A stretch of DNA of 64,000 nt, from contig OZ251459.1 of assembly GCA_965242525.1 (NCBI GenBank), positions 1,609,214-1,673,213 of the forward strand. Direction: 5' to 3'. This document shows positions 2,677 to 64,000 of this stretch, one piece after another; position 1 is the first letter of the stretch; each line of letters opens with the position of its first letter. The translations under genes were made by a program, and so were the position numbers. Below the pieces are notes generated by a model. That model ran no database searches, was not told the DNA's origin, and was given only the letters and a program-made list of their open reading frames with translations. The DNA is from an uncultured Candidatus Binatia bacterium. Its GTDB lineage: Bacteria; Desulfobacterota; Binatia; UBA9968; JAJDTQ01.

Positions 2677-3681
2677 TCAGCGGTCCGAAGGGGGCCGCGC
2701 GCTGTCCGGGTCGGCGCTCGACCGGACCAGGGCCTCGACGCAAGAAGCGGTGTCGAGCATGGCGCACCCGAACCCGACGCTGGGTGGCGCCGGCGGCAGG
2801 GGTCCCTGCCAGTAGCGGTGCTGCGGCCAGCTTCCGTCGGAGCGTTGCCGGCCCAGGATCCGCTCCAGCGTGGCCCACAGCTCTTCGCCCTCCGGCGGGG
2901 CGCCCAGCACGTGCAGCGCGGAAAGGGCGCGGGCGGTGCGGAGGGTGTCGCCGTAGCCGCCGTCCGCGCCGCGGCGGGCGCGGATCCGGTCCGCGAGCCG
3001 GTCGCCCATGTCCCGGAACGCGGGCACGCCCCGCTGCCGGGCGCGGGCCACCGCGTCGTAGAGGTCCATGGCGTCGGGGTAGTAATGGGACGTCCCCTCG
3101 AAGTTCCCCTCGGTGACCAGGCCGGCGAGCCACGCCGCGGCCTGCGCGCCCAACTCGTTCCGGCCCTGTATGGCGAGGTAGCCCACCACGTTGGCGTTCA
3201 CCACGCTGTCCGGGACGTTGCCTTCGCCGGGCGGGGCGAGCCAGGTCCGGAACCTTCCCCTGTCGTCCCGGGCCGCGGACACGAGTCCCAAGTTCTGTCC
3301 GAACAGCACCCAGGGGTGCCACAGGATCGCCAGGGAGCAGACGCTGAGGCTGTCCAGGTCCCGCGGAAGCCGCGGCCAGTAGCGCCACGCGCCCGGATGG
3401 CTCATGGACCGGACGATGAACTCCCCGGACCGGTCCCGGACCGCCCGGGAGCGGGGGTCGTCGCAGACCTCCAGGGTGAGCGCGCCGAGAGCGGCCACGA
3501 AGGGGGGATGCTCCTCGTTGGACGGGCCTTGGAGGTCCAGGCTCGGGTAGCTCCACGAGGTCCATGCCCCGTCGCCGCGGATGGAGGCATGGAGGAAACC
3601 GAGGCCCCGGTCCACCGCGCCGCGCACCGCCTCCCGGAGGTGCGCCGGGACGGCGCCGTCGTTGTAGGATGAATGCTGCAT
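2677..3681 (-). CDS. Prenyltransferase / squalene-hopene-cyclase repeat (alpha/alpha-toroid) protein
   Basis: QW-type repeats RQRSDGSWPQH and RRGADGGYGDT are present, there are no LanC-type Cys/His motifs, and GC3 is high. The start was placed at MQHSSY because the longer ORF (to 3753) runs into the MITE cluster. Confidence 0.5.
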   Translation of the reverse strand: MQHSSYNDGAVPAHLREAVRGAVDRGLGFLHASIRGDGAWTSWSYPSLDLQGPSNEEHPPFVAALGALTLEVCDDPRSRAVRDRSGEFIVRSMSHPGAWRYWPRLPRDLDSLSVCSLAILWHPWVLFGQNLGLVSAARDDRGRFRTWLAPPGEGNVPDSVVNANVVGYLAIQGRNELGAQAAAWLAGLVTEGNFEGTSHYYPDAMDLYDAVARARQRGVPAFRDMGDRLADRIRARRGADGGYGDTLRTARALSALHVLGAPPEGEELWATLERILGRQRSDGSWPQHRYWQGPLPPAPPSVGFGCAMLDTASCVEALVRSSADPDSARPPSDR

Positions 3682-25600: not shown

Positions 25601-28600
25601 CGCGGCGCCGCCAGCAGCATGGCGTCCAGCAGGCGCTTCTCTTCGCTCACCGGAGGGTACAGAGCGGACAGGGCGTTGGCAAGGCGCAGGAAGTCGGGGC
25701 CGCGCTCGTGTTCCGCCTTCAGCAGGTTGCGCAGGGCCTGGCTGCGGCCCGACGCCTGCAAGAGCATGGCCGCGTGGACCCGGTCCAGCGTGGTGGCGTC
25801 CGGGGCCTGCATCTCCGCGTCGTCCGCGATGAGGACCTTCCCACCGCGGCTTCGGGTTCGCTTCTTCTTGGGGGCGGCCTCCATTTCGGGGAAAAGCACC
25901 TGCTGCACGGTGACCCTCGGGTCGCGCTCCAACCATTCCGCGGCCGTGTCTGCGCCGTCTTCGCCGAAAAGCTGTTTCCCTCGTTCCGTGGCGTTTATCA
26001 GCCGCACCACGCCCTTGTCCGTCTCGATGATCCGCCCCTCCCACTTGGACAGTTCGATGCCCAGAGGCTGGGCCAAGCGGCGCGCCACGTCGAAGACGAG
26101 ACTGTAACCCCTAGGCTTGTCGCGGGGCGCGTCGTCCGCCTCCTCGTGGTCATCGTCCTCCGCAACGTTGTCATCGTCTTCGGAGGCGTCGTCTGCGCCA
26201 GTGCTTTGCAGGGTCCAGAGGAACAGGGCGGTCAGGCGGGTGTCCTCTTCCAGCGCCCCGGCCATGCCGTTGCGCGCCTTCGCCTCCGCGGCCCCGAGGA
26301 CGTTTTCGAGGGCGGTGCGCCCGACCACTTCCCACACCCGTTCCAGGTACTCCGGCAGGCCCACCTCACGCCCCTCCGCGGTCTCCACCTGCCGGTAGCG
26401 GCTGTATATCTCCAGGGCCGGTCCGATGCAGGCAAAGACCAGGTCCGCGCCCCGGACCCCTTCGCCTTGCAACCGTTCCATCCATTCGCCCACGCGGATG
26501 GGCAGTTCGCGCAGCACGTCCGCCCAATCGCCCACCGGCGCGTCGTCGGGGCGGGGACGGCAGACCAGGTGGACGCTGGTGGCCAGGGACGCGGTGTCAC
26601 GCGCATTGAGACGAGAACCCATCTCCGTTGCCACCGGCCACGAGCCGGTGATGGTCCAGCCGCCGCTGATCATCCCGGACAGCAGCGCTTCCCAGCCCTC
26701 GGTGGTCTTGTGGGCGAAGACGACCGATCCGATACCGTCCTGGCGCAGGATGCGCCGCCCTTCGGCAAAAGCCCGAACCATTCCCGATTCGTAGGTCCTT
26801 GCCGTCTTGGTCGAACTGCTGAGCCGATGCGGTCGGTCAACGACGATCTCTTCTTCCTTCGGGGTCAGGTCATGTGAATCGATGGAGTGGCAAAGAGCCA
26901 TCATCTGCTCTGGCAAGGCGCGCTTGAGCCATACGAAGAAGAAATCGGACAAGTGTGCATAGGGGACAGCGTCGTAGTAGGGCGGGTCGGTGAACCAGAC
27001 ACTGGCGGCGGCGTCGGGCAAAGGATAAGCCTTGGCGTCTGCGGGTTGCACTTGGCCAAGGTTGGATTCGGGCCATGAGTCAATAACATTGGCAATCCAG
27101 TCCAGCGCTCCGTCATAACCACCGGTGGATTCCGAAAAGGGATTGCTCTCGCTGTAGTCCCAGACCAGGGGGAGAGCCTGTCGAGAATAGACACCCTCAT
27201 GCTTCTCGCCTGATGTATGCCATCGGCATAGCGAGCATCCTGCATTGGCGGTTCGTGTCAACGCCAGCGCCAGAGGTTGTTTCGCCATGTCGTCGATCGT
27301 TGGGAACCTCTGAACGATCGGGACAGGGGGCGTGAGCGCGTCCTTCGACTTCGCTTCGCTACGCTCAGGACGAACGGAGGACTCCACCTCGCTACGCTCA
27401 GGACGAACGGGAGGCTCCGCTTTGCTACGCTCAGGATAAACGGGGATGGGACGGTCAGGGTGCGGGAATCCATCCTGGATGTCTCGATTGTTCGGGAGTT
27501 TCGTTGATGATTTCGTCAATTCCACCAGCGCCGCCTTCTGCCGCGCGGTGAACAGATCGCCCCATGTCGTCATTCCGTAGATTGGCACGCTGATGCGTCG
27601 AATCTCGTTCAGCGAAATCGGCTCGTCCGGCACAGGACACAACCCTTGCCTCCCGCCCCGCTCCCATTCGTCGAGAATCCCCGCCAGCCGTGCCTGCGCT
27701 TCATACACCGCCGCGTAATCGGCGTCCGTCGGCATCCGATAGTGCCGGCCCGGCTCGTTCTCCTTCAGCGTCACCACCGCGGTCATGCACGCGCCGCCCA
27801 TGCGTCTGCCTGCTTCGTCGAAGATCACGTCCGCGCCGCCGCGCTGCTCGGCAAGTTGCGCCCGCACCCGCTCCGGCGGTAGTACGGCGCCGCAACACAG
27901 GCAGGTCGCCTTGGCCCGCGTCACCGTGCCCGCACGCACGTCCTTGTCGGTCTCCGGCTCGAAAATCTCCAACTCCACACGCGGCGGCTCCTTGGCCGGC
28001 TGCACGACCTTATGGAACCTCTGAACAATCGGGACAGGAGGCATGAGCGCGTCCTTCGTCTCCGCTTCGCTACGCTCAGGACGAACGGGGATAGGCGTGT
28101 CAGCGTGAGGGAATCCATCCCGGATCTCTCGATTGTTCAGATGTTTCTTGTACCGGAGCGCCTGACGGCCCCGGACCTTCTTCCGCTTGCCGCCCTCCCT
28201 CTTGAACACAGCTTTCTTCGCCAACCACAGCGACCGCAGCAGCGGGACTTCCGCCCCGCAGTTCGGGGCCTCGCAGCGCACCGTGCGCGCCCACAGGTAG
28301 GCGATGGGCGTGCTCCCGTCCAGGTCCACCGGATACAGATCGGCCAACTCCCGTTCCGCGGCCTGCCTGACCTCGCCGCCGACCTTGCGCAACTCATCGG
28401 CCAGCCCCGAACCGTGGCGCGGGATGTCTTCCAGCATCACCTTGAGGATCAGGCAGGCCACCGGGTTCAGGTCGCTGGCGAACGCCTCGCAGCCCACCCG
28501 CAGGGCTTCCAACGGAATCGAGCCGCCGCCCGCGAACGGGTCCACCACTAGGGGCGGCTCCGCGCCGTGGGCCGCCCTCACCAGCGCCCGGGCCGTTTCG

Positions 28601-29039: not shown

Positions 29040-29660
29040 CGCTTCGCTACGCTCAGGACGAACGGGGATAAGGGGTCGGGGTGAGGGAATCCATCCTGGA
29101 TGTCTCGGTTGTTCAGAGGTTCCATAAATCGGCTCTTCCGGCTTTCGTGTGGGTAAGGTAGAAGGGAAAGGGGAGCGAAAAGGATCACACGGTCATTGCT
29201 CCGCGGACGCCCACTCCCGTCATTCCCGCGCACACCCACTTCCGTCATTCCCGCGAAAGCATGTCCTCGCGGAAGCGGGGGCGGGAATCCATCCGGTTTC
29301 GTCGCTCTCGTTGTACAAACCTCTCCAGGTCGGATTACCCTTCTCGATCCACTCGATCTTCCTTGCCCTATTCCATTTCCTGACCGCCTTTCTCTCCGGG
29401 TAGCGTTTTCCGTGGGTTCAGGGACCTCGTATCCAACCAACCGGTGCACAGATGGATGGATTCCCGCTTTCGCGGGAATGACGGAGATGAGGCTTTCGCG
29501 GGAATGACGGCATGGGCTTTCACAGGAGGAACATCTGAACAATCGAGACATCCGGGATGGATTCCTTCACACTGACCCCTATATCCGTTCGTCCTGAGCG
29601 TAGCGAAGCGAAGTCGAAGGACGCGCTCATGCCTCCTGTCCCGATTTTTCAGAGGTTCCA
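29040..29660. repeat. MITE cluster (family 1 at ~29040-29140 and ~29530-29660; family 2 at ~29226-29520)
   Basis: Read directly. Confidence 0.85.
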
Positions 29661-45819: not shown

Positions 45820-46147
45820 CATGGGAAAGCGCGTCCTTCGACTTCGCTTCGCTACGCTCAGGACGAACGGGCCGTTCGTATCGCTGCGCTCAGGACGAAT
45901 GGGGGGCTTTGCTTCGCGATCCGATTCCCTCCCCCTTGAGGGGGAAGGTCAGGGAGGAGGGGCTCGCACCGACGGACTCGGGGAACCTCTGAACAATCGA
46001 GACATCCGGGATGGATTCCCTCACCCTGAGACCTATATCCGTTCGTCCTGAGCGTAGCGAAGCGAAGTCCCCCGTTCATCCTGAGCGTAGCGAAGCGAAG
46101 TCGAAGGACGCACTCATGCCCCCTGTCCCGATTTTTCAGAGGTTCCT
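45820..46147. repeat. MITE family 1 copies (two units) inserted between coxM-like and coxL-like genes
   Basis: The insertion runs from GGGAAAGCGCGTCCTTCGACTTCGCTTCGCTACGCTCAGGACGAACGG, through GGGAACCTCTGAACAATCGAGACATCCGGGATGGATTCCC, to CCGATTTTTCAGAGGTTCC. Confidence 0.85.
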
Positions 46148-51554: not shown

Positions 51555-51655
51555 AGGAAACTCCGAACAATCGGGGGAGCATGAGCGCGTCCTTCGACTT
51601 CGCTTCGCTACGCTCAGGACGAACGGGGATGGAAGGGTCGCGTGAGGGAGCTTGA
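51555..51655. repeat. Partial MITE family 1 copy
   Basis: Sequence CTCCGAACAATCGGG...GCGTCCTTCGACTTCGCTTCGCTACGCTCAGGACGAACGG. Confidence 0.8.
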
Positions 51656-54049: not shown

Positions 54050-54257
54050 ACATGACGGCCGAAAGTCACCCATCAATGGAAAGGAATCCCGTTCGGCCTC
54101 GTCGTGCGGCAGCTTCGCCGCCCGGACCGAAGGGCCTCGGAAGTTGGAAACGTGACCGGCCGGTTCCTCTGTTCGACCCGGTGGGCGGGCCTGGGCGCGT
54201 TGTCGCTTCCGCGGCCGGATGGTAGATGTAGGGAACCGAACGAGGGTTCGACCGCCG

Positions 54258-55511
54258 ATGACGAAGTCCGAGCTACTGGAACTGATTGCCAACGGGGAAA
54301 ACTCCGGAACGGAGTTCAAAGGCGACGAACAGCGTCCGGAACAGGTCGCCAAGGAAATCGTGGCTCTGGCCAACTTCCGGGGCGGCCGACTGTTGCTGGG
54401 CGTGGAGGACGACGGGACCATTGCGGGTATTCGGCGGGATGACCTCGAACGCTGGATCATGGACACGGTGTTCGGCCGAAAGGTGCATCCGATGATCCTG
54501 CCTTTCTACGAAGAGGTCCGGGTCGATGAACGGCGCAGGGTGGCGGTCGTTACGGTCACCCAGGGCGCGTCCAAGCCTTACGTGGTCCGTCACAACGACC
54601 GGGAAGACATCTATGTGCGCATCGGGAGCACGTCACGGTTGGCTACCCGGAAACAGCAGGCGAGACTGCACGCGCTTGGCGGTATGCTCCACACGGAATT
54701 GCTGCCCGTATCCGGCAGTGGACTCCGCGACCTCGGCAAGGAAAGGCTGGAAGACTACCTCATTTCCATGGTCCACGACCGTGAAACGCCCGCCACCGAC
54801 GAGGCATGGGGCGAGCGCCTGTGCGGACTGGGTTTCATGGCCGAACGTCAAGACGGTCCGCCGGTGTGCACGATAGTGGGACTGGTGCTGTTCGGACGCA
54901 GACCGCGGCGTCTGCTGCGGCAGGCCGGCATTCGATGGATGGCCTTCAAGGGCGGCGCCAAGGCTTACGACGCACTGGACGACCAGGTGATCGACGGCCC
55001 GTTGACCGCTCTCCGGGGCGAGTTGTCAGGCCGCGGACGCGAGGTCCTGGAAAACGGAATCATCGAGCGGCTGGCCGACGCCATGCGTCCATTCGTTTCC
55101 GAAGAAACCGGTCGAATCGGCGAGTCCATGCGCCGGGAGCGGACCTGGCACTACCCTCTGGACGCGGTTCGGGAAGCGGTCGTCAACGCCCTCGGCCATC
55201 GAGACTGGACCCGCAACGAAGAGATCGAAGTCGTCCGTTACGCAGACCGGCTGGAAGTGCTGAGCCCCGGTGCGCTCCAGAACACCATGACGGTCGAGAA
55301 GATGATCGCCGGCCAACGTTCCCCGCGCAACCCGCTCATGGTCGAGGTATTGAAGGACTATGGCTATGCGGACGCTCGCGGCATGGGGGTCCGCAACAAG
55401 ATCATTCCCCTGCTGCGAAAAGCGAACGGCGTGGACCCGGAGTTCCAGGTGACCGAAGACCATTTGCGCCTGACCATGCGCAGGGGAGCGAACGCGCAAC
55501 GAGTCGCGTGA
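54258..55511 (+). CDS. AlbA_2 (Schlafen-like divergent AAA) plus HATPase_c_4 domain protein (putative DNA-binding ATP-dependent regulator, RecG-C-like)
   Basis: N-terminus MTKSELLELIANGENSGTEFKG...IVALANFRGGRLLLGVEDDGTIAGI, and C-terminus REAVVNALGHRDW...RNPLMVEVLKDYGYADARGMGV. Confidence 0.7.
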   Translation: MTKSELLELIANGENSGTEFKGDEQRPEQVAKEIVALANFRGGRLLLGVEDDGTIAGIRRDDLERWIMDTVFGRKVHPMILPFYEEVRVDERRRVAVVTVTQGASKPYVVRHNDREDIYVRIGSTSRLATRKQQARLHALGGMLHTELLPVSGSGLRDLGKERLEDYLISMVHDRETPATDEAWGERLCGLGFMAERQDGPPVCTIVGLVLFGRRPRRLLRQAGIRWMAFKGGAKAYDALDDQVIDGPLTALRGELSGRGREVLENGIIERLADAMRPFVSEETGRIGESMRRERTWHYPLDAVREAVVNALGHRDWTRNEEIEVVRYADRLEVLSPGALQNTMTVEKMIAGQRSPRNPLMVEVLKDYGYADARGMGVRNKIIPLLRKANGVDPEFQVTEDHLRLTMRRGANAQRVA

Positions 55512-55536: not shown

Positions 55537-58500
55537 TTACGGCGCCGGGACGCTTCCGCCTTGGGTCCCGGGTCGGTAGGTCTCCCGGAAGACGGTCTCG
55601 GAGAGCCATTTCTCGAACGACGGGTTGTCGCTGAACTGCTTGAACAACTCGGTGTGGTCCGCGAGCAGCTCGGTCATGGCGCGGCGCAGGGCCTTGTCGT
55701 GTTCGATGCGCGCGTTCTGCCGGTCGGAGTTGGCCATGGCGTTCCGGTACGCCCTGTCACCGGCCACCTTGGCGGGCAGTTCCTCGGCGATGACCTTGGC
55801 GATCTTGTCCTGGTCCTTCCACTCGATGTTGCCGAACCTGTCGTTGAACTCCTCCAGGATGCGGGAGAGCCGGTCCATCTCCGGTTCCGGCTTCTGTCCG
55901 CCGCCCTCGACGGACGCCGGCGGGACCTCCGCATCCTGGTCGGGAAGCTGGACGTCCTGCACCGCCTGCTTCTCGACCCGGTAGCTGTCCATGTCGATGG
56001 CGTCGAGTATCCCCCTGGACAGGTCGTCCTCGACCGGAGCCGGCAGCTTGCGGACGAGGAAGTTCAGGAAGATGGAGAGCTTCTCCCACTCGGCGTTGGT
56101 GTAGGGCAGGATGGCGCCCAGGAAATCGTAGGCCCGGAGGAACGCCTTGGCCTTGCCCTTGAAGTCCACCTGTCCGTCCTCGTCCAGGTTGTCCAGGTAG
56201 ATGGAGACGCAGGCGTCCAGGATCGGGTCGAGCCGGTCGCGGCCGGCCCCCGAGAGGTACTGCTCCACCAACTCGTCCACCTGCGACGGGCCATGGACCT
56301 GGTAGCTGTCGAGGGACGCCTTGAGGTCGTGGAGACGGTTCGGGTCGGTCTCGTCCGCCAGGAGCGTGGTCCGGTAATAGTCGGCGAAGGCGCCCCGTAT
56401 GGCGTCCGCATGGTTGGCGAAGTCCAGCACGAAGGCGTCGTGCTTCCCGGGGCGCGCCCGGTTGAGACGCGACAGGGTCTGCACCGCCTTCACCCCGGAC
56501 AGCGGCTTGTCCACGTACATGGTGTGCAGCAACGGCTCGTCGTAGCCGGTCTGGAACTTGTCGGCGCAGACCAGGAAGCGGTACGGGTCTTGCCGGATGC
56601 GGTCGGCGATGAGGTTCGACGAGAAGCCGTTGAGGGACGCCTCGGTGACCGTCGCGCCCTCGTACTCGTGCTCGCCGGAGAAGGCGACCATGGCCCGGTA
56701 GGGGCTCTTCCTCTCCGCGAGGTAGGCGCGGATGGCGTGGTAATAGCTCACGGCGCGCCGGACGCTGCTCGTCACCACCATGGCGCGCGCCTGTCCGCCG
56801 ATCTTCCGCAGGTCGGCCACCTGCTCGTGGAAGTGGTCCACCATGATCTCGGCCTTGAGGCGGATGGGGTGCTCGTGGTCCTCCACGTAGCGGCGCAGCT
56901 TCTTCCCGGCCCGCTTGGCGTCGAACACCGGGTCGCCCGCCACCGTCTTGACCAACTGGCAGTAGGCGTCCACCGGCGTGTAATGCTTCAGCACGTCGAT
57001 GATGAACCCTTCCTGTACGGCCTGCTTCATGGTGTAGGAGTGGAAGGGAACGTGCCGGGTCTTCCCGTCTTCGGGAACGGGCGCGCCGAAGATCTCCAGG
57101 GTCTTGTTCTTGGGGGTGGCGGTGAAGGCGAAGTAGCTGGCGTTGGGCAAGAGCTTCCTGGACTCCATCAGGCGGTTGATCTTGTCCTCCGCGGTCTCTT
57201 CCTCCCCTTCCGCGCCGGCCTCCCCCAGCGCCATGGACACCGACGCCGAAGCGCGTCCTCCCTGGCTCGAATGGGCTTCGTCGATGACAACGGCGAACTT
57301 GCGCCCCCGGTGCTCGTCGCCCATGGCCTCCAGGATATAGGGGAACTTCTGCACCGTGGTGATGACGATGCGCTTGCCCTCCCGGAGCAGCGTCCGCAGA
57401 CGGCCGGAGGTCTCGGCATGGCCCACGACGGCGCCCACCTGCGCGAACTGCCTGATGGTGTCCCTTATCTGCCCGTCCAACACCTTCCGGTCCGTGACCA
57501 CCACCACGGAATCGAAGAGCGCTCCACCGTCCCGCTCCAGACCGATCAACTGGTGGGCCAACCACGCGATGGAGTTGGACTTGCCGCTGCCCGCGGAGTG
57601 CTGGACCAGGTAGCGGGCTCCGACGCCGCGCTCGGACGCGTCGGCCAGCAACCGGCGCACCACATCGAGCTGGTGGTAGCGAGGCCATACCTGCACCCGC
57701 CTCTTGCGCCCCGTGCCCTCGTCCCTGGTCTCCAGGAGCTGGGCGTAGTTCTCGATGACATCGGTCAACCGGTCGCGGGTGAGGATCTGATTCCACAGGT
57801 AGTCGGTCTTGAGGCCGTCGGGGTTGGGCGGATTGCCCGCGCCATCGTTCCAGCCCCGGTTGAAAGGCAGGAACCACGACTCCTTGCCCCTGAGATGGGT
57901 GCAGAAACGGACCTCGTGTTCATCCACCGCAAAGTGGGCCAGGCAGCGGCCAAGCTCGAAGAGCTTCTCGCCCGGGCGCCGGTCGCGCTTGTACTGCTCC
58001 ACCGCGTCGTCCACCGTCTGCTTGGTGAGGCGGTTCTTCAACTCGAAGGTGGCCACCGGCAGGCCGTTGACGAACAGGCACAGGTCCAGGGCAAGCCGAG
58101 TCTCGTCAAGGCTGTACCGGAGTTGCCTCGTCACGCTGAACCGGTTCCGTGCGTAGAGGCTTTCGGCCCTCTCGTTCCCCGCAGACGGCGTGCCGTAGAA
58201 CAGGTCCAGGTGGTGCGGCCCATGCTTGACGCCCTTGCGCAGCAAGTCGATGGTCCCGCGCCTGCCCACCTGCCCTTGCAGCCGGGCCAGGAACTTGCGC
58301 CGCGCGGGGCCGTCCTGGGCCAGGTCCAGCGACGCGGCCGCCTCGGGCTGGGTGGCGCGGAGGAAAGCCGAAAGCTGGGCCAAGTCGACGCAGTACTCCC
58401 GGTCGTAGTCCCGCGGGTCCCCGCAAATCCAGCCCGCGCCGCAACCCGACCGCGGTTCGCGCCCCACGCCCTCCTGCGCCGGGTCGCACGCGCTCCCTGT

Positions 58501-58554
58501 CAGCGCCGTGCAGATGAGGCGCTCCAGGCCGCGCTCGGTGGTGTCCGTGGTCAT
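55537..58554 (-). CDS. hsdR: Type I restriction enzyme R subunit
   Basis: N-terminal nuclease region, then helicase motif I VQHSAGSGKS and motif II VVIDEAHSSQ, with a motif VI region QTLSRLNR. The start was set at MTTDTTERGL, because the longer ORF runs into a MITE remnant. Confidence 0.85.
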   Translation of the reverse strand: MTTDTTERGLERLICTALTGSACDPAQEGVGREPRSGCGAGWICGDPRDYDREYCVDLAQLSAFLRATQPEAAASLDLAQDGPARRKFLARLQGQVGRRGTIDLLRKGVKHGPHHLDLFYGTPSAGNERAESLYARNRFSVTRQLRYSLDETRLALDLCLFVNGLPVATFELKNRLTKQTVDDAVEQYKRDRRPGEKLFELGRCLAHFAVDEHEVRFCTHLRGKESWFLPFNRGWNDGAGNPPNPDGLKTDYLWNQILTRDRLTDVIENYAQLLETRDEGTGRKRRVQVWPRYHQLDVVRRLLADASERGVGARYLVQHSAGSGKSNSIAWLAHQLIGLERDGGALFDSVVVVTDRKVLDGQIRDTIRQFAQVGAVVGHAETSGRLRTLLREGKRIVITTVQKFPYILEAMGDEHRGRKFAVVIDEAHSSQGGRASASVSMALGEAGAEGEEETAEDKINRLMESRKLLPNASYFAFTATPKNKTLEIFGAPVPEDGKTRHVPFHSYTMKQAVQEGFIIDVLKHYTPVDAYCQLVKTVAGDPVFDAKRAGKKLRRYVEDHEHPIRLKAEIMVDHFHEQVADLRKIGGQARAMVVTSSVRRAVSYYHAIRAYLAERKSPYRAMVAFSGEHEYEGATVTEASLNGFSSNLIADRIRQDPYRFLVCADKFQTGYDEPLLHTMYVDKPLSGVKAVQTLSRLNRARPGKHDAFVLDFANHADAIRGAFADYYRTTLLADETDPNRLHDLKASLDSYQVHGPSQVDELVEQYLSGAGRDRLDPILDACVSIYLDNLDEDGQVDFKGKAKAFLRAYDFLGAILPYTNAEWEKLSIFLNFLVRKLPAPVEDDLSRGILDAIDMDSYRVEKQAVQDVQLPDQDAEVPPASVEGGGQKPEPEMDRLSRILEEFNDRFGNIEWKDQDKIAKVIAEELPAKVAGDRAYRNAMANSDRQNARIEHDKALRRAMTELLADHTELFKQFSDNPSFEKWLSETVFRETYRPGTQGGSVPAP

Positions 58555-58607
58555 GGTCCGGATTCCGGTCCTGCATGGAACGGGTTGATTACCCGCAGGC
58601 CGCCGCA

Positions 58608-58676
58608 AGGAAACCCTGAACAATCGTCCTCGTTCGTCCTGAGCGTAGCGAAGCGAAGTCGAAGGACGCGCTGACG
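58608..58676. repeat. Partial MITE family 1 copy
   Basis: Sequence GGAAACCCTGAACAATCG...CGTTCGTCCTGAGCGTAGCGAAGCGAAGTCGAAGGACGCGC. Confidence 0.8.
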
Positions 58677-58697
58677 GCGTAGAGCAGCACGCTGGTG

Positions 58698-59018
58698 TCA
58701 ACGAATCGCATCGGGTCCGTTCATCGCTTCATCGTACAGCTCTTCCCGGGTCAGCCGATCGGAGGCTTGCAGCCCCAGACGCCGCGCATCCAGATCCGCG
58801 AAGAACTCGTCCAGCCGCCTGCGCCGACGCTCCAACTCCGGCTCTCTCTCCCCTTCCGCACCCGGTTCGTTGGCCGCCATAGCGTCCTCGCCGCGGTCGG
58901 CCGCGAGGCCATTGAGATAGCCGCGCACCAGCGCCGAGACCGACGTGCCGGCCTCCGTAGCCTTGGCATGGGCGACGCGGTAGGTCTCCTCGTCCAACGA
59001 AACGGTGACGTTCTTCAT
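58698..59018 (-). CDS. Ribbon-helix-helix (CopG/StbC-like) antitoxin-type protein
   Basis: Sequence MKNVTVSLDEETYRVAHAKATEAGTSVSALVRGYLNGL. The ORF-track N-terminal extension was rejected. Confidence 0.6.
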   Translation of the reverse strand: MKNVTVSLDEETYRVAHAKATEAGTSVSALVRGYLNGLAADRGEDAMAANEPGAEGEREPELERRRRRLDEFFADLDARRLGLQASDRLTREELYDEAMNGPDAIR

Positions 59019-59218
59019 CCTTGCGACCTCACCATCAGCCTGACTCACAATATACCAGCAATCGACCCTCCGGCGCACCACGGTCTCGCGGGCTCCCTTT
59101 CTCCGGCAATCGGTGGTGTCGGTGGACGACTTCATTTCTTCAAGGGGCGAACAAGCCCTTCTTCGCCAGGACATCGACCGCCATCGGCATAGCCCGACCA
59201 GAGCGGTGCGCCCTGCCG

Positions 59219-59722
59219 TCATCTCGGAAATGTCGGTTGAAGGGTTGAGTCGCCGGGCCGCCGAACCTCCCACGGCTCGAACACCACCACCTTCAGATCG
59301 TGGAACTCCCCCAAGCTGGCCTCGATACGCGGCCGCACCGTAGCCCAGTCCAGGCCGCCCAATCCGCTGCCCAGCGGCGGCAGCGCAATGGAGCCGATAT
59401 TGCGCTCCCGGATCTCTCGGGTCAGGGTGGCAAGACCGGCTTCGATGTCCTCCATTCGGCTCTTGTCCCGCCAGTGGCGCTTGGTCGGGAAGTTGATGAT
59501 GTAGCGCGGGTATATCCGGCCGGTCTCGAAGACGAACAGCCGGCCAGGCTGAACCGTCCCCTGCCTGCATGCCGCGGCGTACGCGTCAAAGTTATCGGGA
59601 AACGCCTTCTTGAACTGCAAAGCAAGGCCGCGCCCCATGACGCCGACACACTTGACGGTGTTGACCAGCGCTTCGGCGTCTTCAGCGATGATGTCGCCTG
59701 TCTTGTATTCGATCATGGCCAA
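59219..59722 (-). CDS. Stand-alone macro-domain protein (ADP-ribose binding/hydrolase; DarG-macrodomain-like)
   Basis: Sequence MAMIEYKTGDIIAEDAEALVNTVKCVGVMGRGLALQFKKAFPDNF...INFPTKRHWRDKSRMEDIEAGL...ALPPLGSGLGGLDW. Confidence 0.7.
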   Translation of the reverse strand: MAMIEYKTGDIIAEDAEALVNTVKCVGVMGRGLALQFKKAFPDNFDAYAAACRQGTVQPGRLFVFETGRIYPRYIINFPTKRHWRDKSRMEDIEAGLATLTREIRERNIGSIALPPLGSGLGGLDWATVRPRIEASLGEFHDLKVVVFEPWEVRRPGDSTLQPTFPR

Positions 59723-59879
59723 CCTTCCTTCACCTCAACAATACCAGTCCAGCTTGATTGTGAGTCGCGGTTTATGCGGAGCAGATTGAAGAACTGCATG
59801 ACGCGATAGCACATCGGTAGCGACAAGGTGCCCCTTAGACCGGTTGTCCGCCTATCAAGTGACGCCTACTCTCAAACCC

Positions 59880-60590
59880 TTAATAACCCTTTTTAGAAGG
59901 TGAAAGCAAGGCAGGGAACTCTTTCATCCGGGCAATAACAGCGAACCGTATGTGTTCATTCAGGATGTCCGCTCGACGACATAAAATCCCTTTTTTCTCA
60001 CAGTGCCGTCTAGCAAAAGTCGTTTCTTCCTCCGTAAGAAACTCGGTGATCCTCACATAATCATCCACTTTCCACATTGGATCGCAAAGATCGTCGATGT
60101 CGTGAACTTCGTCGAGCGATTTTGATTTCTCCAAGAATTGCCCTGCCAACTCAGCTACATATAAGTCGAACTCTGGCCGATTGTAAATCATCCTGTAACG
60201 CCTGTAGGAGTCTTCCTCGTTTTTTCTGATACCTCGCATGATCTTCTGTCTTTTTTTATCATCCATGTCCCAAGACCGGTTCAGTTCTAGCGTCATAAAA
60301 TCCATCTCCAAGGTCCGGCAAAGCGCTTCTTTTTCGGCAAAGGAAAGGCAATTATCACCTCTCGCCCATCGATAAATACGCCAAGGCCTAATCTGAGGAT
60401 CACACTGGTAAGCGAGATCCGTCAACGTGCAGTTCTTATCCTTCAAATGCTCTCGAAGCCACTCCGGAGTTTTCCATTTCATACGAAGCTTGGTAATGAA
60501 CGATGCCAACGAGTTTCGCTGCACAAACATCATCACTATCGTTAAAACGCTCGCAATCACGGGGAGAATCACGGAGATTAAGTCTATCAC
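59880..60590 (-). CDS. Hypothetical membrane-anchored protein with XRE-like HTH segment; low-GC island
   Basis: N-terminal TM LISVILPVIASVLTIVMMFV and an HTH-like segment CTLTDLAYQCDPQIRPWRIYRWARGDNCLSFAEKEALCRTL. Lys/Asn/Ile/Phe-rich composition in AT-rich DNA is unlike the rest of the window. Confidence 0.5.
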   Translation of the reverse strand: MIDLISVILPVIASVLTIVMMFVQRNSLASFITKLRMKWKTPEWLREHLKDKNCTLTDLAYQCDPQIRPWRIYRWARGDNCLSFAEKEALCRTLEMDFMTLELNRSWDMDDKKRQKIMRGIRKNEEDSYRRYRMIYNRPEFDLYVAELAGQFLEKSKSLDEVHDIDDLCDPMWKVDDYVRITEFLTEEETTFARRHCEKKGILCRRADILNEHIRFAVIARMKEFPALLSPSKKGY

Positions 60591-60749
60591 TGTTCCGTCA
60601 CCCTTCAGGAGGCTATGTCTTTACCTTTCGATTAGGTTGGTGGGTAGATCCTATTTCGTAAACCATGTTCGGCTTGCAGATTACGCCGTGAGACCCCGCT
60701 CACACGAAAGACTGGAGAATCATCTTTGATTCGGCAGGAACAAGCATGT

Positions 60750-62135
60750 TCAATCTTCCACAGACACCTTGGCCGTTGCTCCACGCACGTCCAGCTTGCC
60801 GGTCACTGCATTGGCGACCAGGCGGGTGCGATACTCGCGGAGCAGGTCGATCTGCCGCCGGGTACGGGCGATGGTACAGTCGATGCCAGCGGTAACTTGG
60901 TCGAGATATAGGACGATAGCGTTTTGTTCCGATAAAGGAGGGAATGCAATTTTGATCTCCCCGATCTCAGCTTCGTTGATTGCAGGAACAGGACCAGGCT
61001 TGGTGATGACTGCCAAGTCGATACGCTGCAATAACGATAGTACGAAGTCAGGATTCCCCCGAGCAACAACGCAGCCCATCAAATTATTGTCGATGCTGGA
61101 AGGTTGTGTCAAGACGCGTCGTTTATTAGTTAGCATCGCACCGCCAACCTTGGGGAAGATAATGGTTCCGACCGGAAAGATTGCTGCTTTCAATGCCGCT
61201 GCTGTATTGTGAGAGACCGAATTATTCCAAGTTTTCACGAACTTGTCATTGCCAGGAAGATTCATGTCAGAGACTTTGAGGAAAGGAACTTCTTGATCTT
61301 GCTGGCCTTGTTGCTCTACAGGAAATCCACTCCCACTCTTGAATGTCCCCAGGTGTTTCAAAGCGAATACATCCCAATGCTCTGGTACATCACCTAGCCA
61401 CTCCACACCCGAAGGTTTGAGCGAGACGCTAGGATCAAGGCCACGGGTGACGGCTTGGGTCACGACGGCCTGTCGCTCATCCTCCAGCAGCGCGATGAGC
61501 CGCTCCTTGGCATCGACGTACCGGCGGATGCGGGCGTCCACGTGATCCAGGTACCGCACGATGGCCGACTGTTCCGATAGGGGCGGGAGAGGAATACGGA
61601 CGGATTTGATGCCAAAGTGGGTAAGACCGTACCGCGTAACGCCGTTCGCCCCTACGTGGAACTGGTAGGCAACCCCCCTGCTCTGCAAAGTCAGAGCCAA
61701 ATATGCCCCGAGTATCGCCTTGCAAGGCCGTAGCAGCGCCAGATGGTAGCCGGAAAGAAGGTCATCCGCTGACTCCGTTACCAGAGCCGGAACTCCAATG
61801 TCGTCCCACGTCTCGGAGTCCTTCGTGACGAGTACGTCGTCTCGCTCCAGCCGGAATCTTTCGATTTCGTCCGGCGATGCCGTTGCGCTCATGAAAGGCA
61901 GGTCCTGGGTTATCCGATCGTTCTTGTAAACATCGACGTAGTTGCACAGACGAACCGGAACTTCGCCCTCCCTCGTGTGCTTATCCACGTTGCTTACGCG
62001 CATTTCCGCTACGGTGCGAAGCCGCCGCACTTTCCAATGCTCCGGCACGTCGCCGAGCCACTCGACACCGGAGGGCTTGTAGGCTGGATAAGGGCGGAGC
62101 TTTTGGAATCTCTCAACAATCGGGACAGGGGGCAT
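60750..62135 (-). CDS. hsdS: Type I R-M specificity subunit; the start codon is possibly supplied by a MITE
   Basis: Two TRDs, each beginning KPSGVEWLGDVPEHW, with conserved PLPPLSEQSAIVRYLD and FPPLSEQNAIVLYLD segments. The second TRD is AT-richer. The ORF extends into the MITE (ALMPPVPIVERF). Confidence 0.8.
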   Translation of the reverse strand: MPPVPIVERFQKLRPYPAYKPSGVEWLGDVPEHWKVRRLRTVAEMRVSNVDKHTREGEVPVRLCNYVDVYKNDRITQDLPFMSATASPDEIERFRLERDDVLVTKDSETWDDIGVPALVTESADDLLSGYHLALLRPCKAILGAYLALTLQSRGVAYQFHVGANGVTRYGLTHFGIKSVRIPLPPLSEQSAIVRYLDHVDARIRRYVDAKERLIALLEDERQAVVTQAVTRGLDPSVSLKPSGVEWLGDVPEHWDVFALKHLGTFKSGSGFPVEQQGQQDQEVPFLKVSDMNLPGNDKFVKTWNNSVSHNTAAALKAAIFPVGTIIFPKVGGAMLTNKRRVLTQPSSIDNNLMGCVVARGNPDFVLSLLQRIDLAVITKPGPVPAINEAEIGEIKIAFPPLSEQNAIVLYLDQVTAGIDCTIARTRRQIDLLREYRTRLVANAVTGKLDVRGATAKVSVED

Positions 62136-62240
62136 GAGCGCGTCCTTCGACTCCGCTTCGCTACGCTCAGGACGAACGGGGATAAGAGAGTCAGGGTGAG
62201 GGAGTCTATCCCGGATGTCTCGCTTGTTCAGAGGTTCCTT
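62105..62240. repeat. MITE family 1 copy overlapping the hsdS 5' end
   Basis: The element runs from CTCTCAACAATCGGGACAGGGGGCATGAGCGCGTCCTTCGACTCCGCTTCGCTACGCTCAGGACGAACGG to CGCTTGTTCAGAGGTTCC. Confidence 0.85.
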
Positions 62241-62387
62241 TTTCAGGTCCGTCATCCTGCCGCACCGCTCATTTCGACTTCGAAGAAGCGTCGGCCCGAT
62301 TGGACTTGGCAAAGAACTCCCCGGCAGGGGTTCTCAGCGGATGGGGCCGCTCCACCGCGTACATGAAGATGTTGGTATCCACGAATA

Positions 62388-64000
62388 TCACGAACCGCCC
62401 TGTCCCCCGCGGCGGGACTTGTCCATGACCCTCAGGTGTTGCTCCCAATCCGGTTCACGCTCAGGACCTTCCCGAGCGTCGCACTCCCGAAAGAACTCGT
62501 CCAGTTGCGCCGGCGACTCGAAGGCGCCGGGGCGCGGCGCCTCTCCCACGATCTCTTCCAGCAACCCTTCGGTCTCCCGCTCCAACGCCAGTATGTCGGC
62601 CCGTATCTCATCCAGGGAGCGCAGGGGTTCCGGCTTGTAGAAGTAACGGGTGAAGCTGATCTCGTAACCGACCTTGAGGTTGCCGGGCGTGTACCAGGCA
62701 TCGGGCGCGTAGGGCAGCACCTCCCGTTTCAGGAAGGCGTCGATGCCGCCCTCTTCCTGGAACGGGACCTGCTCGACGTCGCGCAGGTCGGTGTCCGGCT
62801 CGTACTCCACCACCGCGGGCCTGCCGTCGATGGCGGCTGCGAACTTGCCGCATAGCGGGTCGGGCTCGGCGCCGCTCTCGTGGACTTTCCTGATGACCGG
62901 CGGCGCGGCCTCCGAACGCGGGAGTTCGTCCTTGAGCGCCCGGATTTCCCTGGGGGCGTAGGCCCGCTCGGGGTCGATGCCTTCCAACCTCAGGGGCCGC
63001 TCCACGACCACCTTCCAGTAGGCGAACGCCTCGTTGGGGAATATCTTCGACTCCTCGGTCTCCTCGAAGGCGAGGAAGACGTCGCAGATGCGTTGGATGT
63101 GGTCGCCCGAAAGTTCACAGTTCTTGTTGCCCAGGTTCTTGCGCAGGGGCCGGAACCATTGGGTGGCGTCGATGAGCTGCACCTTGCCCCGCCGCTGTTC
63201 GGCCTTGCGGTTGCTGAGCACCCAGATATAGGTGGCGATGCCGGTGTTGTAGAAAATGTTGAGAGGCAGCGCGACGACCGCTTCCAGCCAGTCGTTCTCG
63301 ATGATCCAGCGGCGGATGTTGCTCTCGCCCTGACCGGCGTCGCCGGTGAAGAGGGAGCTTCCGTTGTGGACCTCGGCGATGCGGCTGCCCAGGGGGGTGT
63401 CCTGCTTCCTCTTGCTCAGCATGTTGGCCAGGAACATCATCTGGCCGTCGCTGGACCGCGTGATCAGCGAGTACTCGCTGTCGCCGCTATGCTCCACCAC
63501 GAAGCGCGGGTCCTTGACGCCGGACTTGCCGCCCATGCGCTCCAGGTCGCTCTTCCAGCTCTTGCCGTAAGGCGGGTTGGAGAGCATGAAGTCGAACTCC
63601 CGGGTCGGGAATCCGTCCCCGGAGAGCGTGGAGCCGTACTGCATGTTGTCCGCCCCGACGCCCTCTCCCTTGAGGATGAGGTCGGCCTTGCTGATGGCGT
63701 AGGTCTCCGGGTTCACCTCCTGGCCGTACAGGTGCACCGACACTTCCTTGCCCTGTTTCCTCGCCAACTCCGTCAGCGTCTCCTCCGCGACGGTCAGCAT
63801 CCCGCCGGTGCCGCAAGCGCCGTCGTACACGAGGTAGGTGCCGGACTTGACCTGATCGGCCACGGGCCGGAAGACCAGGTGGGCCATGAGCTGCACCACG
63901 TCCCTGGGGGTGAAGTGCTCCCCGGCCTCTTCGTTGTTCTCCTCGCTGAAGCGGCGGATGAGCTCTTCGAACACCGTGCCCATGCCGTGGTTGTCCAGAC
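62388..64000 (-). CDS. hsdM: Type I R-M N6-adenine DNA methyltransferase subunit; N-terminus beyond window
   Basis: Motifs GEHFTPRDVVQLM, DGACGTGGML and NPPYG. The ORF reaches the window end. Confidence 0.85.
   Translation of the reverse strand, partial: LDNHGMGTVFEELIRRFSEENNEEAGEHFTPRDVVQLMAHLVFRPVADQVKSGTYLVYDGACGTGGMLTVAEETLTELARKQGKEVSVHLYGQEVNPETYAISKADLILKGEGVGADNMQYGSTLSGDGFPTREFDFMLSNPPYGKSWKSDLERMGGKSGVKDPRFVVEHSGDSEYSLITRSSDGQMMFLANMLSKRKQDTPLGSRIAEVHNGSSLFTGDAGQGESNIRRWIIENDWLEAVVALPLNIFYNTGIATYIWVLSNRKAEQRRGKVQLIDATQWFRPLRKNLGNKNCELSGDHIQRICDVFLAFEETEESKIFPNEAFAYWKVVVERPLRLEGIDPERAYAPREIRALKDELPRSEAAPPVIRKVHESGAEPDPLCGKFAAAIDGRPAVVEYEPDTDLRDVEQVPFQEEGGIDAFLKREVLPYAPDAWYTPGNLKVGYEISFTRYFYKPEPLRSLDEIRADILALERETEGLLEEIVGEAPRPGAFESPAQLDEFFRECDAREGPEREPDWEQHLRVMDKSRRGGQGGS

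What the first reader, a model, noticed from the sequence alone, without database searches (positions are those of the whole stretch)
55537..64000. Type I R-M locus split by an embedded gene island (RHH antitoxin-like, stand-alone macro domain, low-GC membrane/HTH protein)
hsdM and hsdS are separated from hsdR by about 2.2 kb carrying three small genes. One is a macro-domain protein resembling the DarG antitoxin macrodomain but lacking a recognisable DarT (DUF4433) partner and the DarG C-terminal domain. The AT-rich 236-aa membrane-anchored HTH protein is compositionally foreign. Defence genes embedded inside Type I R-M operons are a known hotspot phenomenon. A macro domain, RHH and membrane/HTH trio could be an uncharacterised ADP-ribosylation-linked toxin-antitoxin or abortive-infection module.
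Basis: partly seen in the sequence, partly recalled or inferred. Interest (0 to 1): 0.6.

Follow-up and report, generated by a model that had tools for sequence, protein, structure and literature searches.

The report
Eroded defence island inside Type I R-M
The three small genes between hsdS and hsdR are not one new toxin-antitoxin module; they are what is left of three separate cassettes (DarTG, VapBC and a low-GC regulator/TIR pair) whose toxic partners have been deleted, at a site already known as an insertion hotspot.

Summary
On the minus strand, hsdM and hsdS are separated from hsdR by 2,195 bp holding a low-GC 236-aa gene, a 165-aa macro ORF and a 106-aa RHH ORF.

Sister loci from closely related genomes show these are not a trio. 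The fullest one (L005) reads hsdM-vapB-vapC-hsdS-[240 aa]-[DUF1883-TIR]-darT-darG-[RHH]-hsdR.

- **Macro ORF:** it is the N-terminal half of a DarG orthologue. A 1-nt frameshift and a 468-bp deletion removed its C-domain, and a 1.46-kb deletion removed the TIR gene and all but the last ~90 nt of darT.
- **RHH:** it is a VapB. Its vapC is a 14-codon stub followed by a dispersed repeat, and is intact in L025, L027 and L089.
- **Second vapBC relic:** it lies between hsdM and hsdS, with the vapB 3' half fused in frame to hsdM.

The macro-only ORF appears to be under purifying selection in the clade, but this genome's copy carries N22K at an invariant, functionally important residue. DarTG between hsdS and hsdR is already published. 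Interest is modest.

The parts
62388..64000 (-). hsdM (5' end lies beyond the window). Its last 48 codons (62391-62534) derive from the 3' half of a vapB antitoxin gene and are fused in frame.
   Evidence: N6_Mtase 3.5e-55, PADLOC MTase_I 1e-182. tblastn places residues 44-91 of the sister 91-aa VapB at 62534-62391 in the hsdM frame. About 283 bp present in L005 (2411-2693) are missing here.
62269..62391 (-). vapC (PIN) stub 1: about 34 homologous codons, then unrelated sequence and a stop.
   Evidence: blastn aligns window 62523-62289 to L005 2694-2928, where the PIN gene is 2826-3215. tblastn with the L003 PIN covers residues 1-24 at 83% identity. The PIN is intact (119-129 aa, PF01850) in L003-L006 and L089.
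62137..62182 (.). Copy of a dispersed REP-like repeat, directly upstream of hsdS.
   Evidence: blastn-short finds about 20 copies across the window.
60750..62135 (-). hsdS with two target-recognition domains. The likely start is the ATG at 62135. Its GC content is low (0.56).
   Evidence: Methylase_S 5.9e-18, PADLOC Specificity_I 5e-104. Start inferred from the alignment to sister HsdS N-termini.
59880..60590 (-). Low-GC 236-aa gene: an N-terminal membrane anchor (about residues 1-25), an XRE-type HTH (about 37-110) and an all-helical C-domain of unknown function (126-236).
59734..59826 (-). darT 3' stub (last ~30 codons). The rest of darT and an upstream DUF1883-TIR gene are deleted.
   Evidence: blastn aligns window 59826-59191 to L005 6854-7491, where darT is 6290-6946. 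tblastn covers DarT residues 198-217. The same junction occurs in L087, L088 and L089.
59219..59716 (-). darG-derived macro-domain ORF (165 aa). Catalytic K79 (K80 in T. aquaticus DarG numbering) is kept. It carries N22K. A frameshift near 59267 gives a 17-aa foreign tail.
   Evidence: NCBIfam DarG 252.7 bits, profile positions 1-152 of 338; PADLOC DarG 1.6e-75. PDB 5M31 and 5M3I at 3.5e-49. The 1-nt deletion is shared with L001. N22K is the only deviation from columns that are invariant or nearly invariant across the 14 DarGs compared.
59140..59270 (-). Out-of-frame darG remnants: residues 150-177 (59187-59270), a 468-bp deletion junction (about 59184-59190) and the last 14 codons plus stop (59140-59183).
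   Evidence: tblastn finds DarG 150-177 in a second frame. blastn aligns window 59183 onward to L005 7959 onward, with L005 7491-7959 missing. The alignment is shown.
58698..59018 (-). RHH gene: a VapB-type antitoxin (106 aa), now without a toxin.
   Evidence: Weak hits to DUF6364 (5.9e-4) and NikA-like/Arc-like families. Orthologues in L025, L027 and L089 are followed by an overlapping, intact 140-144-aa PIN gene that ends at the hsdR start.
58670..58711 (-). vapC stub 2: 14 codons (MRFVDTSVLLYAVS) overlapping the RHH stop.
   Evidence: Read directly from the sequence. L027 VapC begins MRFVDTNVLLYAVS.
58604..58677 (.). REP-like repeat copy replacing the body of vapC.
55537..58554 (-). hsdR (1005 aa), intact.
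   Evidence: HSDR_N, SWI2_SNF2, ResIII, T1R_D3. TIGR00348 4e-59. 93-95% nucleotide identity to sister loci.

Best explanation
The 2.2-kb insert between hsdS and hsdR is the eroded remainder of several independent cassettes that accumulated at a recombination hotspot inside this Type I R-M operon family. It is not a three-gene system. An ancestor like sister locus L005 carried hsdM-vapBC-hsdS-[TM/XRE gene]-[DUF1883-TIR]-darT-darG-vapB(RHH)-(vapC)-hsdR.

In this genome every toxic or effector partner has been deleted:
- both vapC genes are reduced to stubs;
- a 1.46-kb deletion removed the TIR gene and darT;
- a frameshift plus a 468-bp deletion removed the DarT-binding C-domain of DarG.

What remains are the harmless partners, and each acts on its own.
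1. The DarG macro domain is an ADP-ribosyl-thymidine DNA glycohydrolase. In principle it could still neutralise a DarT supplied in trans. This copy carries N22K, which probably weakens it (inferred).
2. The VapB RHH protein is a DNA-binding antitoxin/autorepressor (inferred from family).
3. The 236-aa protein is a membrane-tethered XRE-type DNA-binding protein. It is most likely a regulator, and possibly the former regulator or antidote of the adjacent TIR gene (inferred, weak).

The Type I R-M genes appear intact as far as the window shows.
For: **Sister loci.** The loci share the flanking genes NMT1, Cupin_2 and Amidohydro_2.
- L005 and L006 carry DarT (NF048013, 241 bits) and full-length DarG (450 bits, 345 aa) at the same position. 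There the 240-aa gene is followed after 21 nt by a DUF1883-TIR gene (PADLOC PDC-S66, 2.9e-70).
- L002, L003 and L004 also carry full DarT and DarG.

**Deletion map.**
- The window equals L005 minus 5390-6854 and minus 7491-7959.
- The frameshift and the second deletion are shared with L001.
- The darT-deletion junction is shared with L087, L088 and L089.

**DarT.** Only a 20-aa DarT stub exists anywhere in the window.

**RHH and vapC.** RHH orthologues are followed by an intact PIN in L025, L027 and L089.

**Independent variation of the three genes.**
- L001 has no macro N-terminus or darT, but keeps the HTH N-half, fused to TIR by deletion.
- L087 and L088 have a stop at codon ~126 plus a C-domain deletion in the 236-aa gene, but an intact macro ORF.
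- L089 keeps vapC.

**Other species.** Among 80 loci of the same hsdR family in other species, 9 have darT-darG between hsdS and hsdR, 3 have DarG fragments only, 9 have the RHH and none has the 236-aa gene.

**Literature.**
- DarTG2 sits between hsdS and hsdR in enteropathogenic E. coli (EPEC), and the site is described as a potential recombination hotspot (PMC12255303).
Against: **The macro-only ORF does not look like a freely decaying pseudogene.** Derived codon states confined to the truncated alleles are 24 synonymous against 9 nonsynonymous (p = 5e-9 against neutrality). The dead fragment in L001 has changed faster than the window copy over the same stretch. So 'relic' may understate a retained function. 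Recombination between alleles is evident, which weakens this test.

**A DarT elsewhere in the genome cannot be excluded.**

**The regulator role of the 236-aa protein is weakly based.** It rests on fold similarity and one type of sister locus. Its C-domain has no detectable relatives, and the full-length structure model was unusable (pLDDT 41.5).

**No expression data exist.**
Confidence: 0.8

Rival explanations
1. One reading: the macro, RHH and membrane/HTH genes form one uncharacterised ADP-ribosylation-linked toxin-antitoxin or abortive-infection module, with the membrane protein as toxin or effector.
For: The three ORFs are adjacent, on the same strand and embedded in a defence operon. 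All three ORFs are intact. The 236-aa gene and the macro ORF show dN/dS below 0.3 and the RHH gene about 0.5.
Against: Each gene has a different, identifiable partner in sister loci, and DNA stubs of those partners remain here. The genes vary independently between genomes. The trio occurs only in genomes that share the same deletion junctions, so it has a single origin by deletion. The 236-aa family is absent from all 80 other-species loci, although DarTG and the RHH recur there.
Confidence: 0.04
2. The DarG-derived macro ORF is a functional stand-alone DNA de-ADP-ribosylase (an orphan antitoxin). Selection keeps it in this clade to counter a DarT encoded elsewhere or brought in by mobile elements, or to repair ADP-ribosylated DNA. 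This is compatible with the main explanation for the other genes.
For: - The truncated alleles show a signature of purifying selection: 24 synonymous against 9 nonsynonymous derived states; pairwise dN/dS 0.13-0.25 at dS up to 0.35.
- The truncated 165-aa allele is common: three 90%-identity clusters holding 22 member sequences.
- All residues that are invariant across 14 DarGs are kept except N22.
- The macro domain alone rescues DarT toxicity (PMC5179494).
- A macro hydrolase outside the DarG family (SCO6735) also reverses DarT's thymidine-linked DNA ADP-ribosylation (PMC9411070).
- Many 150-185-aa DarG-like macro-only ORFs exist in other genomes, some on megabase contigs.
Against: This genome's copy has N22K at a residue that contacts ADP-ribose, and its alanine mutant is strongly impaired. 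The sister truncated alleles keep N22. The selection signal could be imported by recombination with intact darG alleles; a mosaic pattern is seen. No DarT is present in the window. Many of the short database ORFs are on short contigs or may themselves be relics, for example P0069 with a DarT fragment at its N-terminus.
Confidence: 0.4
3. The 236-aa protein is the regulatory or neutralising partner of the neighbouring DUF1883-TIR gene, in a two-gene low-GC cassette. The window keeps only this partner.
For: In L005 and L006 the two genes are 21 nt apart, with an AAGGAA ribosome-binding site, and they share an atypical GC (0.476 and 0.447 against about 0.67). XRE HTH proteins are common antitoxins and defence regulators, and the fold hits include HigA, HipB and CapH. 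The pattern in this island is that antidotes survive and toxins are lost.
Against: TIR homologues in L015, L063 and L086 have no such neighbour. PADLOC files the TIR under the label PDC-S66, and the PDC set includes single-gene candidates. The association is seen in one lineage only. The gene persists at dN/dS 0.29 in loci that have lost the TIR gene.
Confidence: 0.2
4. The 236-aa protein is a controller of the R-M operon itself, analogous to C proteins or RptR. It would set hsdR or island expression from a membrane-tethered position.
Against: These hits reflect the generic XRE fold; phage repressors and antitoxins score equally well. The family is absent from the 80 other-species loci of the same R-M family. 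C proteins are small soluble proteins next to the R gene. No promoter or operator signal rose above shuffled controls.
Confidence: 0.12

Closest known systems
DarTG2 embedded in a Type I R-M operon (the EPEC E2348/69 RRDM island; T. aquaticus and M. tuberculosis DarTG)
   Same: The position is the same, between hsdS and hsdR. The macro domain is a clear DarG orthologue (5M31 and 5M3I at 3.5e-49; NCBIfam DarG above its cut-off). Sister loci and 9 of 80 other-species loci have the complete darT-darG pair there.
   Different: Here darT is reduced to ~90 nt. DarG has lost its C-terminal DarT-binding domain and carries N22K. The system cannot work as a DarTG TA or defence module.
Macro hydrolases that act without a DarG C-domain or outside DarG (SCO6735, TARG1), and phage orphan DarG-like antitoxins
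   Same: A macro domain on its own is enough: the T. aquaticus DarG macro domain alone rescues DarT toxicity, and SCO6735 also reverses thymidine-linked DNA ADP-ribosylation (PMC5179494, PMC9411070). The orphan-antitoxin concept is published (PMC11825919, title and abstract).
   Different: This ORF arose recently by truncation of a canonical DarG, and the deletion scars are still present. SCO6735 is an old, conserved family with different catalytic residues. Activity of the K22 variant is untested.
VapBC type II toxin-antitoxin pairs
   Same: The RHH gene overlaps the start of a PIN gene. The orthologous pairs are intact in L025, L027 and L089, and a second vapBC lies between hsdM and hsdS in sister loci.
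   Different: Both vapC genes in the window are stubs (14 and ~34 codons) followed by a REP-like repeat. One vapB is fused to hsdM.
XRE/Cro-C1 HTH regulators (P22 c2, 434 repressor, R-M C proteins, CapH, HigA/HipB), and membrane-anchored XRE proteins (RodZ, YmfM)
   Different: There is no significant sequence match to any XRE family. The membrane anchor is N-terminal to the HTH, the reverse of RodZ. The ~110-aa C-domain has no relatives. The family is confined to a few closely related genomes.
PADLOC phage-defence candidate PDC-S66 and ThsB-like TIR proteins, and the 'guilt-by-embedding' concept (Payne et al. 2024)
   Same: The sister-locus DUF1883-TIR gene matches PDC-S66 (2.9e-70). The PDC candidates were defined from genes embedded in Type I R-M, BREX and DISARM systems.
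   Different: The TIR gene is absent from the window. It appears only in sister loci.

Membership tests
DarG antitoxin (NCBIfam NF048014) | Macro domain of the DarG clade that scores above the family cut-off | tested here: met
   252.7 bits against a cut-off of 250, but only profile positions 1-152 of 338. PADLOC DarG 1.6e-75. PDB DarG macro domains at 3.5e-49.
DarG antitoxin (NCBIfam NF048014) | Catalytic lysine (K80 in T. aquaticus DarG) | tested here: met
   K79 in the FPTKRHW motif aligns with K80.
DarG antitoxin (NCBIfam NF048014) | ADP-ribose-contacting N22 (N22A strongly impairs activity) | tested here: not met
   The window has K22. All 14 other DarGs aligned, and the sister truncated alleles, have N. 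Its importance is reported in PMC5179494.
DarG antitoxin (NCBIfam NF048014) | C-terminal DarT-binding domain (about 190 aa) | tested here: not met
   A frameshift at about codon 150 and a 468-bp deletion removed it. Only 28 out-of-frame codons and the last 14 codons remain.
DarTG2 toxin-antitoxin/defence system | Adjacent DarT (DUF4433/PF14487) ADP-ribosyltransferase gene | tested here: not met
   Only a 20-aa 3' stub at 59800-59741 is found in the whole 64-kb window. The rest of the genome could not be searched.
VapBC type II TA | RHH-type antitoxin gene directly upstream of, and overlapping, a PIN gene | tested here: met
   The RHH assignment by sequence is weak (DUF6364 at 5.9e-4, below its cut-off). 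Orthologues precede an intact PIN in L025, L027 and L089, with overlapping start and stop.
VapBC type II TA | Intact PIN-domain toxin | tested here: not met
   A 14-codon stub at 58711-58670 and a ~34-codon stub at 62391-62289.
Type I restriction-modification system | hsdM, hsdS and hsdR all present and intact | tested here: met
   All three have strong family hits. The hsdM 5' end lies outside the window, and hsdM carries a 48-aa VapB-derived C-terminal extension. Activity is not testable here.
XRE/Cro-C1 HTH family | Five-helix HTH fold | tested here: met
XRE/Cro-C1 HTH family | Significant sequence match to an HTH_3/XRE profile | tested here: inconclusive
   No Pfam or NCBIfam hit. PHROG_3 repressor at 2.2e-5.
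R-M controller (C) proteins | Small soluble XRE protein immediately upstream of the R gene, with C-box operators | tested here: not met
   The protein is 236 aa with a membrane anchor and is separated from hsdR by two other ORFs. C-boxes were not searched specifically. No promoter-like signal rose above shuffled controls.
Thoeris type II (TIR ThsB plus TM-macro ThsA) | A TIR protein together with a membrane-anchored macro effector | tested here: not met
   The macro ORF is a DarG orthologue without a TM segment. No TIR gene is in the window. The sister-locus TIR and macro genes are separated by darT.

The most novel reading that the evidence does not exclude
The island may be a retained 'antidote-only' set rather than junk. 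A DarG-derived stand-alone DNA de-ADP-ribosylase would be kept by selection after loss of DarT. A membrane-tethered XRE protein found only in this clade would originally have controlled or neutralised a DUF1883-TIR effector, forming a previously undescribed two-gene TIR module. Together they could protect the host against toxins carried by incoming mobile elements.
Probability: 0.15. Interest if true: 0.5.

Novelty: new member of a known kind. Interest (0 to 1): 0.28.

Why it matters
The window and its sister loci capture several stages in the turnover of cassettes embedded in a Type I R-M operon. In four separate modules the toxin or effector is lost first and the antidote or regulator lingers. 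The DarG macro domain may persist under selection after darT is gone.

This is a useful caution for 'guilt-by-embedding' searches. A set of small adjacent genes inside a defence operon can be unrelated leftovers rather than a new system.

The only element without precedent is the membrane-anchored XRE protein found only in this clade. Its link to a PDC-S66-like TIR gene is a testable lead, but a narrow one.

Tried and rejected
- **Exact-sequence look-ups** of the window's 236-aa and macro proteins, and of P0001, found nothing on record.
- **Full-length AF2 model** of the 236-aa protein had pLDDT 41.5 and was not used.
- **Profile search of 1.84 billion representative proteins** found only the family itself plus two repetitive proteins, judged spurious.
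- **PDB profile search** gave only a Mediator subunit at E = 1.4.
- **Scans of genome, viral and metagenome contigs** with the family alignment found no relatives.
- **The TIR fusion protein P0007** first looked like evidence for a modular effector architecture. It was rejected: blastn shows it is a deletion product that joins the 240-aa gene to the neighbouring TIR gene.
- **A conserved partner for the TIR gene** was sought in L015, L063 and L086. None was found.
- **A Thoeris-II-like TIR plus macro reading** was rejected (see the membership test).
- **Promoter and terminator scans** gave nothing above shuffled controls.
- **Rfam** gave no match.
- **The afdb50 fold library** was unavailable.
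- **'Macro ORF is a neutral pseudogene'** was tested by lineage-specific substitution counts and was not supported. Recombination limits this test.

Full report
**1. The observation**

All relevant genes are on the minus strand.
- hsdM runs from 62388 past the window end (N6_Mtase 3.5e-55; PADLOC MTase_I 1e-182).
- hsdS is 60750-62135 (Methylase_S; Specificity_I 5e-104).
- hsdR is 55537-58554 (HSDR_N, SWI2_SNF2, ResIII, T1R_D3; TIGR00348 4e-59).
- The 2,195 bp between hsdS and hsdR hold three ORFs: 59880-60590 (236 aa), 59219-59716 (165 aa from the ATG) and 58698-59018 (106 aa).
- The 236-aa gene has GC 0.453 and GC3 0.53, in a window of GC 0.679 where hsdR has GC3 0.92.

**2. The macro ORF is a truncated DarG**

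It matches NCBIfam 'antitoxin DarG' at 252.7 bits (cut-off 250), but only profile positions 1-152 of 338. It matches PADLOC DarG positions 1-148 of 329. It also matches the solved DarG macro domains of T. aquaticus and M. tuberculosis at 3.5e-49.

tblastn with a sister-locus DarG shows three pieces:
- residues 1-160 in one frame;
- residues 150-177 in a second frame;
- the last 14 codons ('MAVDVLAKKGLFAP*') as a separate stub.

The cause is a 1-nt deletion near 59267 plus a 468-bp internal deletion.

**3. Sister loci give the history**

Homologues of the 236-aa protein led to contigs from closely related genomes that share the flanking genes NMT1, Cupin_2 and Amidohydro_2.

The fullest locus, L005, reads: hsdM - vapB (91 aa) - vapC (PIN, 129 aa) - hsdS - 240-aa gene - DUF1883-TIR (265 aa; PADLOC PDC-S66, 2.9e-70) - DarT (NF048013, 241 bits) - DarG (345 aa, 450 bits) - RHH (106 aa) - hsdR.

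blastn shows that the window equals this arrangement minus two segments:
- L005 5390-6854, holding the TIR gene and darT codons 1-188;
- L005 7491-7959, holding the DarG C-domain.

The remaining ~90 nt of darT sit at 59734-59826.

The frameshift and the 468-bp deletion are shared with L001. The darT-deletion junction is shared with L087, L088 and L089. L001 lost darT by a different deletion, which also fused the N-half of the 240-aa gene to the TIR domain. That fusion explains protein P0007.

No other DarT-like sequence exists in the 64-kb window.

**4. The RHH is a VapB**

Right after its stop codon the window reads ATG-CGA-TTC-GTT-GAC..., translating to MRFVDTSVLLYAVS. It then runs into a dispersed repeat.

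In L025, L027 and L089 the orthologous RHH gene is followed by an overlapping, intact 140-144-aa PIN gene. In L027 that gene starts MRFVDTNVLLYAVS and ends exactly at the hsdR start.

A second vapBC relic lies between hsdM and hsdS. The 3' half of vapB is fused in frame to hsdM (62391-62534). vapC is cut to about 34 homologous codons (62289-62391), again next to a repeat copy.

**5. The 236-aa gene**

It has no Pfam, NCBIfam or PADLOC match.

*Distribution.*
- Seven clusters among 5.8 billion proteins, all from the same few genomes.
- Nothing credible among 1.84 billion representative proteins.
- Nothing in the genome, viral or metagenome contig scans.

*It is a real gene.*
- dN/dS is 0.29, and 0.31 for the first 36 codons.
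- Indels are in frame.
- The start position is conserved, alternating GTG and ATG behind a GAAGGG motif.

*Domain layout.*
- The first ~25 residues are the only strongly hydrophobic segment. Basic residues follow it. By the positive-inside rule this suggests an N-out, C-in anchor (inference).
- An AF2 model of residues 37-128 reached pLDDT 82.6.
- Sequence-level support is weak: PHROG_3 at 2.2e-5 and hhalign at E = 0.54.
- The C-terminal ~110 residues have no relatives.

*The C-half is dispensable in some sisters.* It is lost in L087 and L088 (stop at codon ~126 plus a deletion) and replaced in L001. The membrane-anchor-plus-HTH half is present in all eight loci.

*Link to the TIR gene.* In L005 and L006 the gene is 21 nt from an equally low-GC TIR gene (GC 0.447). 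TIR homologues elsewhere have no such neighbour.

**6. Is the orphan macro ORF dead?**

*Against a simple pseudogene.*
- The truncated 165-aa allele occurs in several sister genomes (P0012-P0014, 22 member sequences).
- Pairwise dN/dS among truncated alleles is 0.13-0.25 at dS up to 0.35.
- Codon states derived only in truncated alleles are 24 synonymous against 9 nonsynonymous (p = 5e-9 against neutrality).
- The certainly dead fragment in L001 changed faster than the window copy over the same 35 codons.

*Caveat.* The hsdR tree and the site patterns show recombination among alleles, so part of this signal could be imported from intact darG alleles.

*Against function in this genome.* The window alone carries N22K, its only departure from columns that are invariant or nearly invariant across the 14 DarGs compared. 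N22 hydrogen-bonds ADP-ribose, and N22A had the strongest effect on turnover after K80A (PMC5179494).

The same paper shows that the macro domain alone suffices as antitoxin. A truncated DarG could therefore have supported DarT for a time. Both readings are kept open.

**7. Wider context**

Among 80 loci of the same hsdR family from other species (best matches are Dehalococcoidia/Chloroflexota MAGs at up to 82% identity):
- 9 have darT-darG between hsdS and hsdR;
- 3 have DarG fragments only;
- 9 have the RHH;
- 4 have the vapB, and 3 of those also have the PIN;
- 3 have the TIR gene;
- none has the 236-aa gene.

The literature already reports the following:
- DarTG2 sits between hsdS and hsdR in EPEC, at a potential recombination hotspot (PMC12255303).
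- Genes embedded in Type I R-M systems are a rich source of defence candidates (bioRxiv 10.1101/2024.01.29.577857).

**8. Verdict**

The 'trio module' interpretation is not supported. The island is an eroded composite in which every toxin or effector (two VapC, DarT, TIR) has been deleted and the antidote or regulator partners remain.

Shown by the comparisons:
- the identities of the macro and RHH genes;
- the deletion map;
- the independent variation of the three genes between genomes.

Inferred:
- the order of events;
- the present activity of the macro ORF;
- the regulator role of the 236-aa protein.

In novelty terms this is a degenerate member of a known arrangement, plus one family found only in this clade.

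Noticed in passing
window 62137-62182, 58604-58677, 51584-51630, 28013-28093, 29585-29660, 46070-46146 and others: A dispersed REP/MITE-like repeat of ~45-80 bp (core GCGTCCTTCGACTTCGCTTCGCTACGCTCAGGACGAACGG) has about 20 copies in the 64-kb window. Copies sit exactly where both vapC genes are truncated. Read through, the repeat translates as '...SLRYAQDERG...' and inflates neighbouring ORF calls, including the apparent 5' extensions of hsdR and hsdS.
   Followed up: partly
window 62391-62534: hsdM has an in-frame 48-codon C-terminal extension derived from the toxin-binding half of a VapB antitoxin, created by a deletion of about 283 bp. Sister locus L087 has a 701-aa HsdM against 651-654 aa elsewhere, which suggests the same fusion. 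Its effect on the methyltransferase is unknown.
   Followed up: partly
window 54219-55511 (+): A SLFN_AlbA_2 + HATPase_c_4 gene is convergent with hsdR and has weak PADLOC hits to pAgo-associated proteins. This slot also varies: an AAA_14/DUF4143 gene in L001 and L087, and the opposite orientation in L004 and L005. It looks like a second variable position flanking the R-M operon.
   Followed up: no
L002 5516-5790, L003 1998-2150, L004 about 9830-10000: In the loci with intact DarTG, a 35-50-codon fragment of the darT 5' end lies between hsdS and the low-GC gene. A fragment of the hsdR 5' end plus a shortened RHH copy lie between that gene and the full darT. This points to duplicative rearrangement or cassette insertion at this site.
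   Followed up: partly
L089 3113-3848: L089 is the locus closest to the window at hsdR (dS 0.073), yet it still has an intact 142-aa vapC after the RHH. L087 groups with the intact-DarTG locus L005 at hsdR but carries the truncated macro. The island is a recombination mosaic across lineages.
   Followed up: partly
proteins P0015-P0131: Hundreds of DarG-like macro-only ORFs of 150-270 aa exist in public data, some on megabase contigs. One (P0069) starts with a DarT fragment ('DGWLWCDAK'). Truncated or orphan DarG macro domains may be common. Full-length DarGs were absent from the top of the list.
   Followed up: partly
window 60800-61400; L002 4763-5488: hsdS is low in GC (0.56 overall, down to 0.47 in the second target-recognition domain) and differs in architecture between sister loci: 461 aa with two domains here, 241-aa half-size forms in L002 and L004, and 358-439 aa in others. 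This is consistent with frequent exchange of specificity domains.
   Followed up: no
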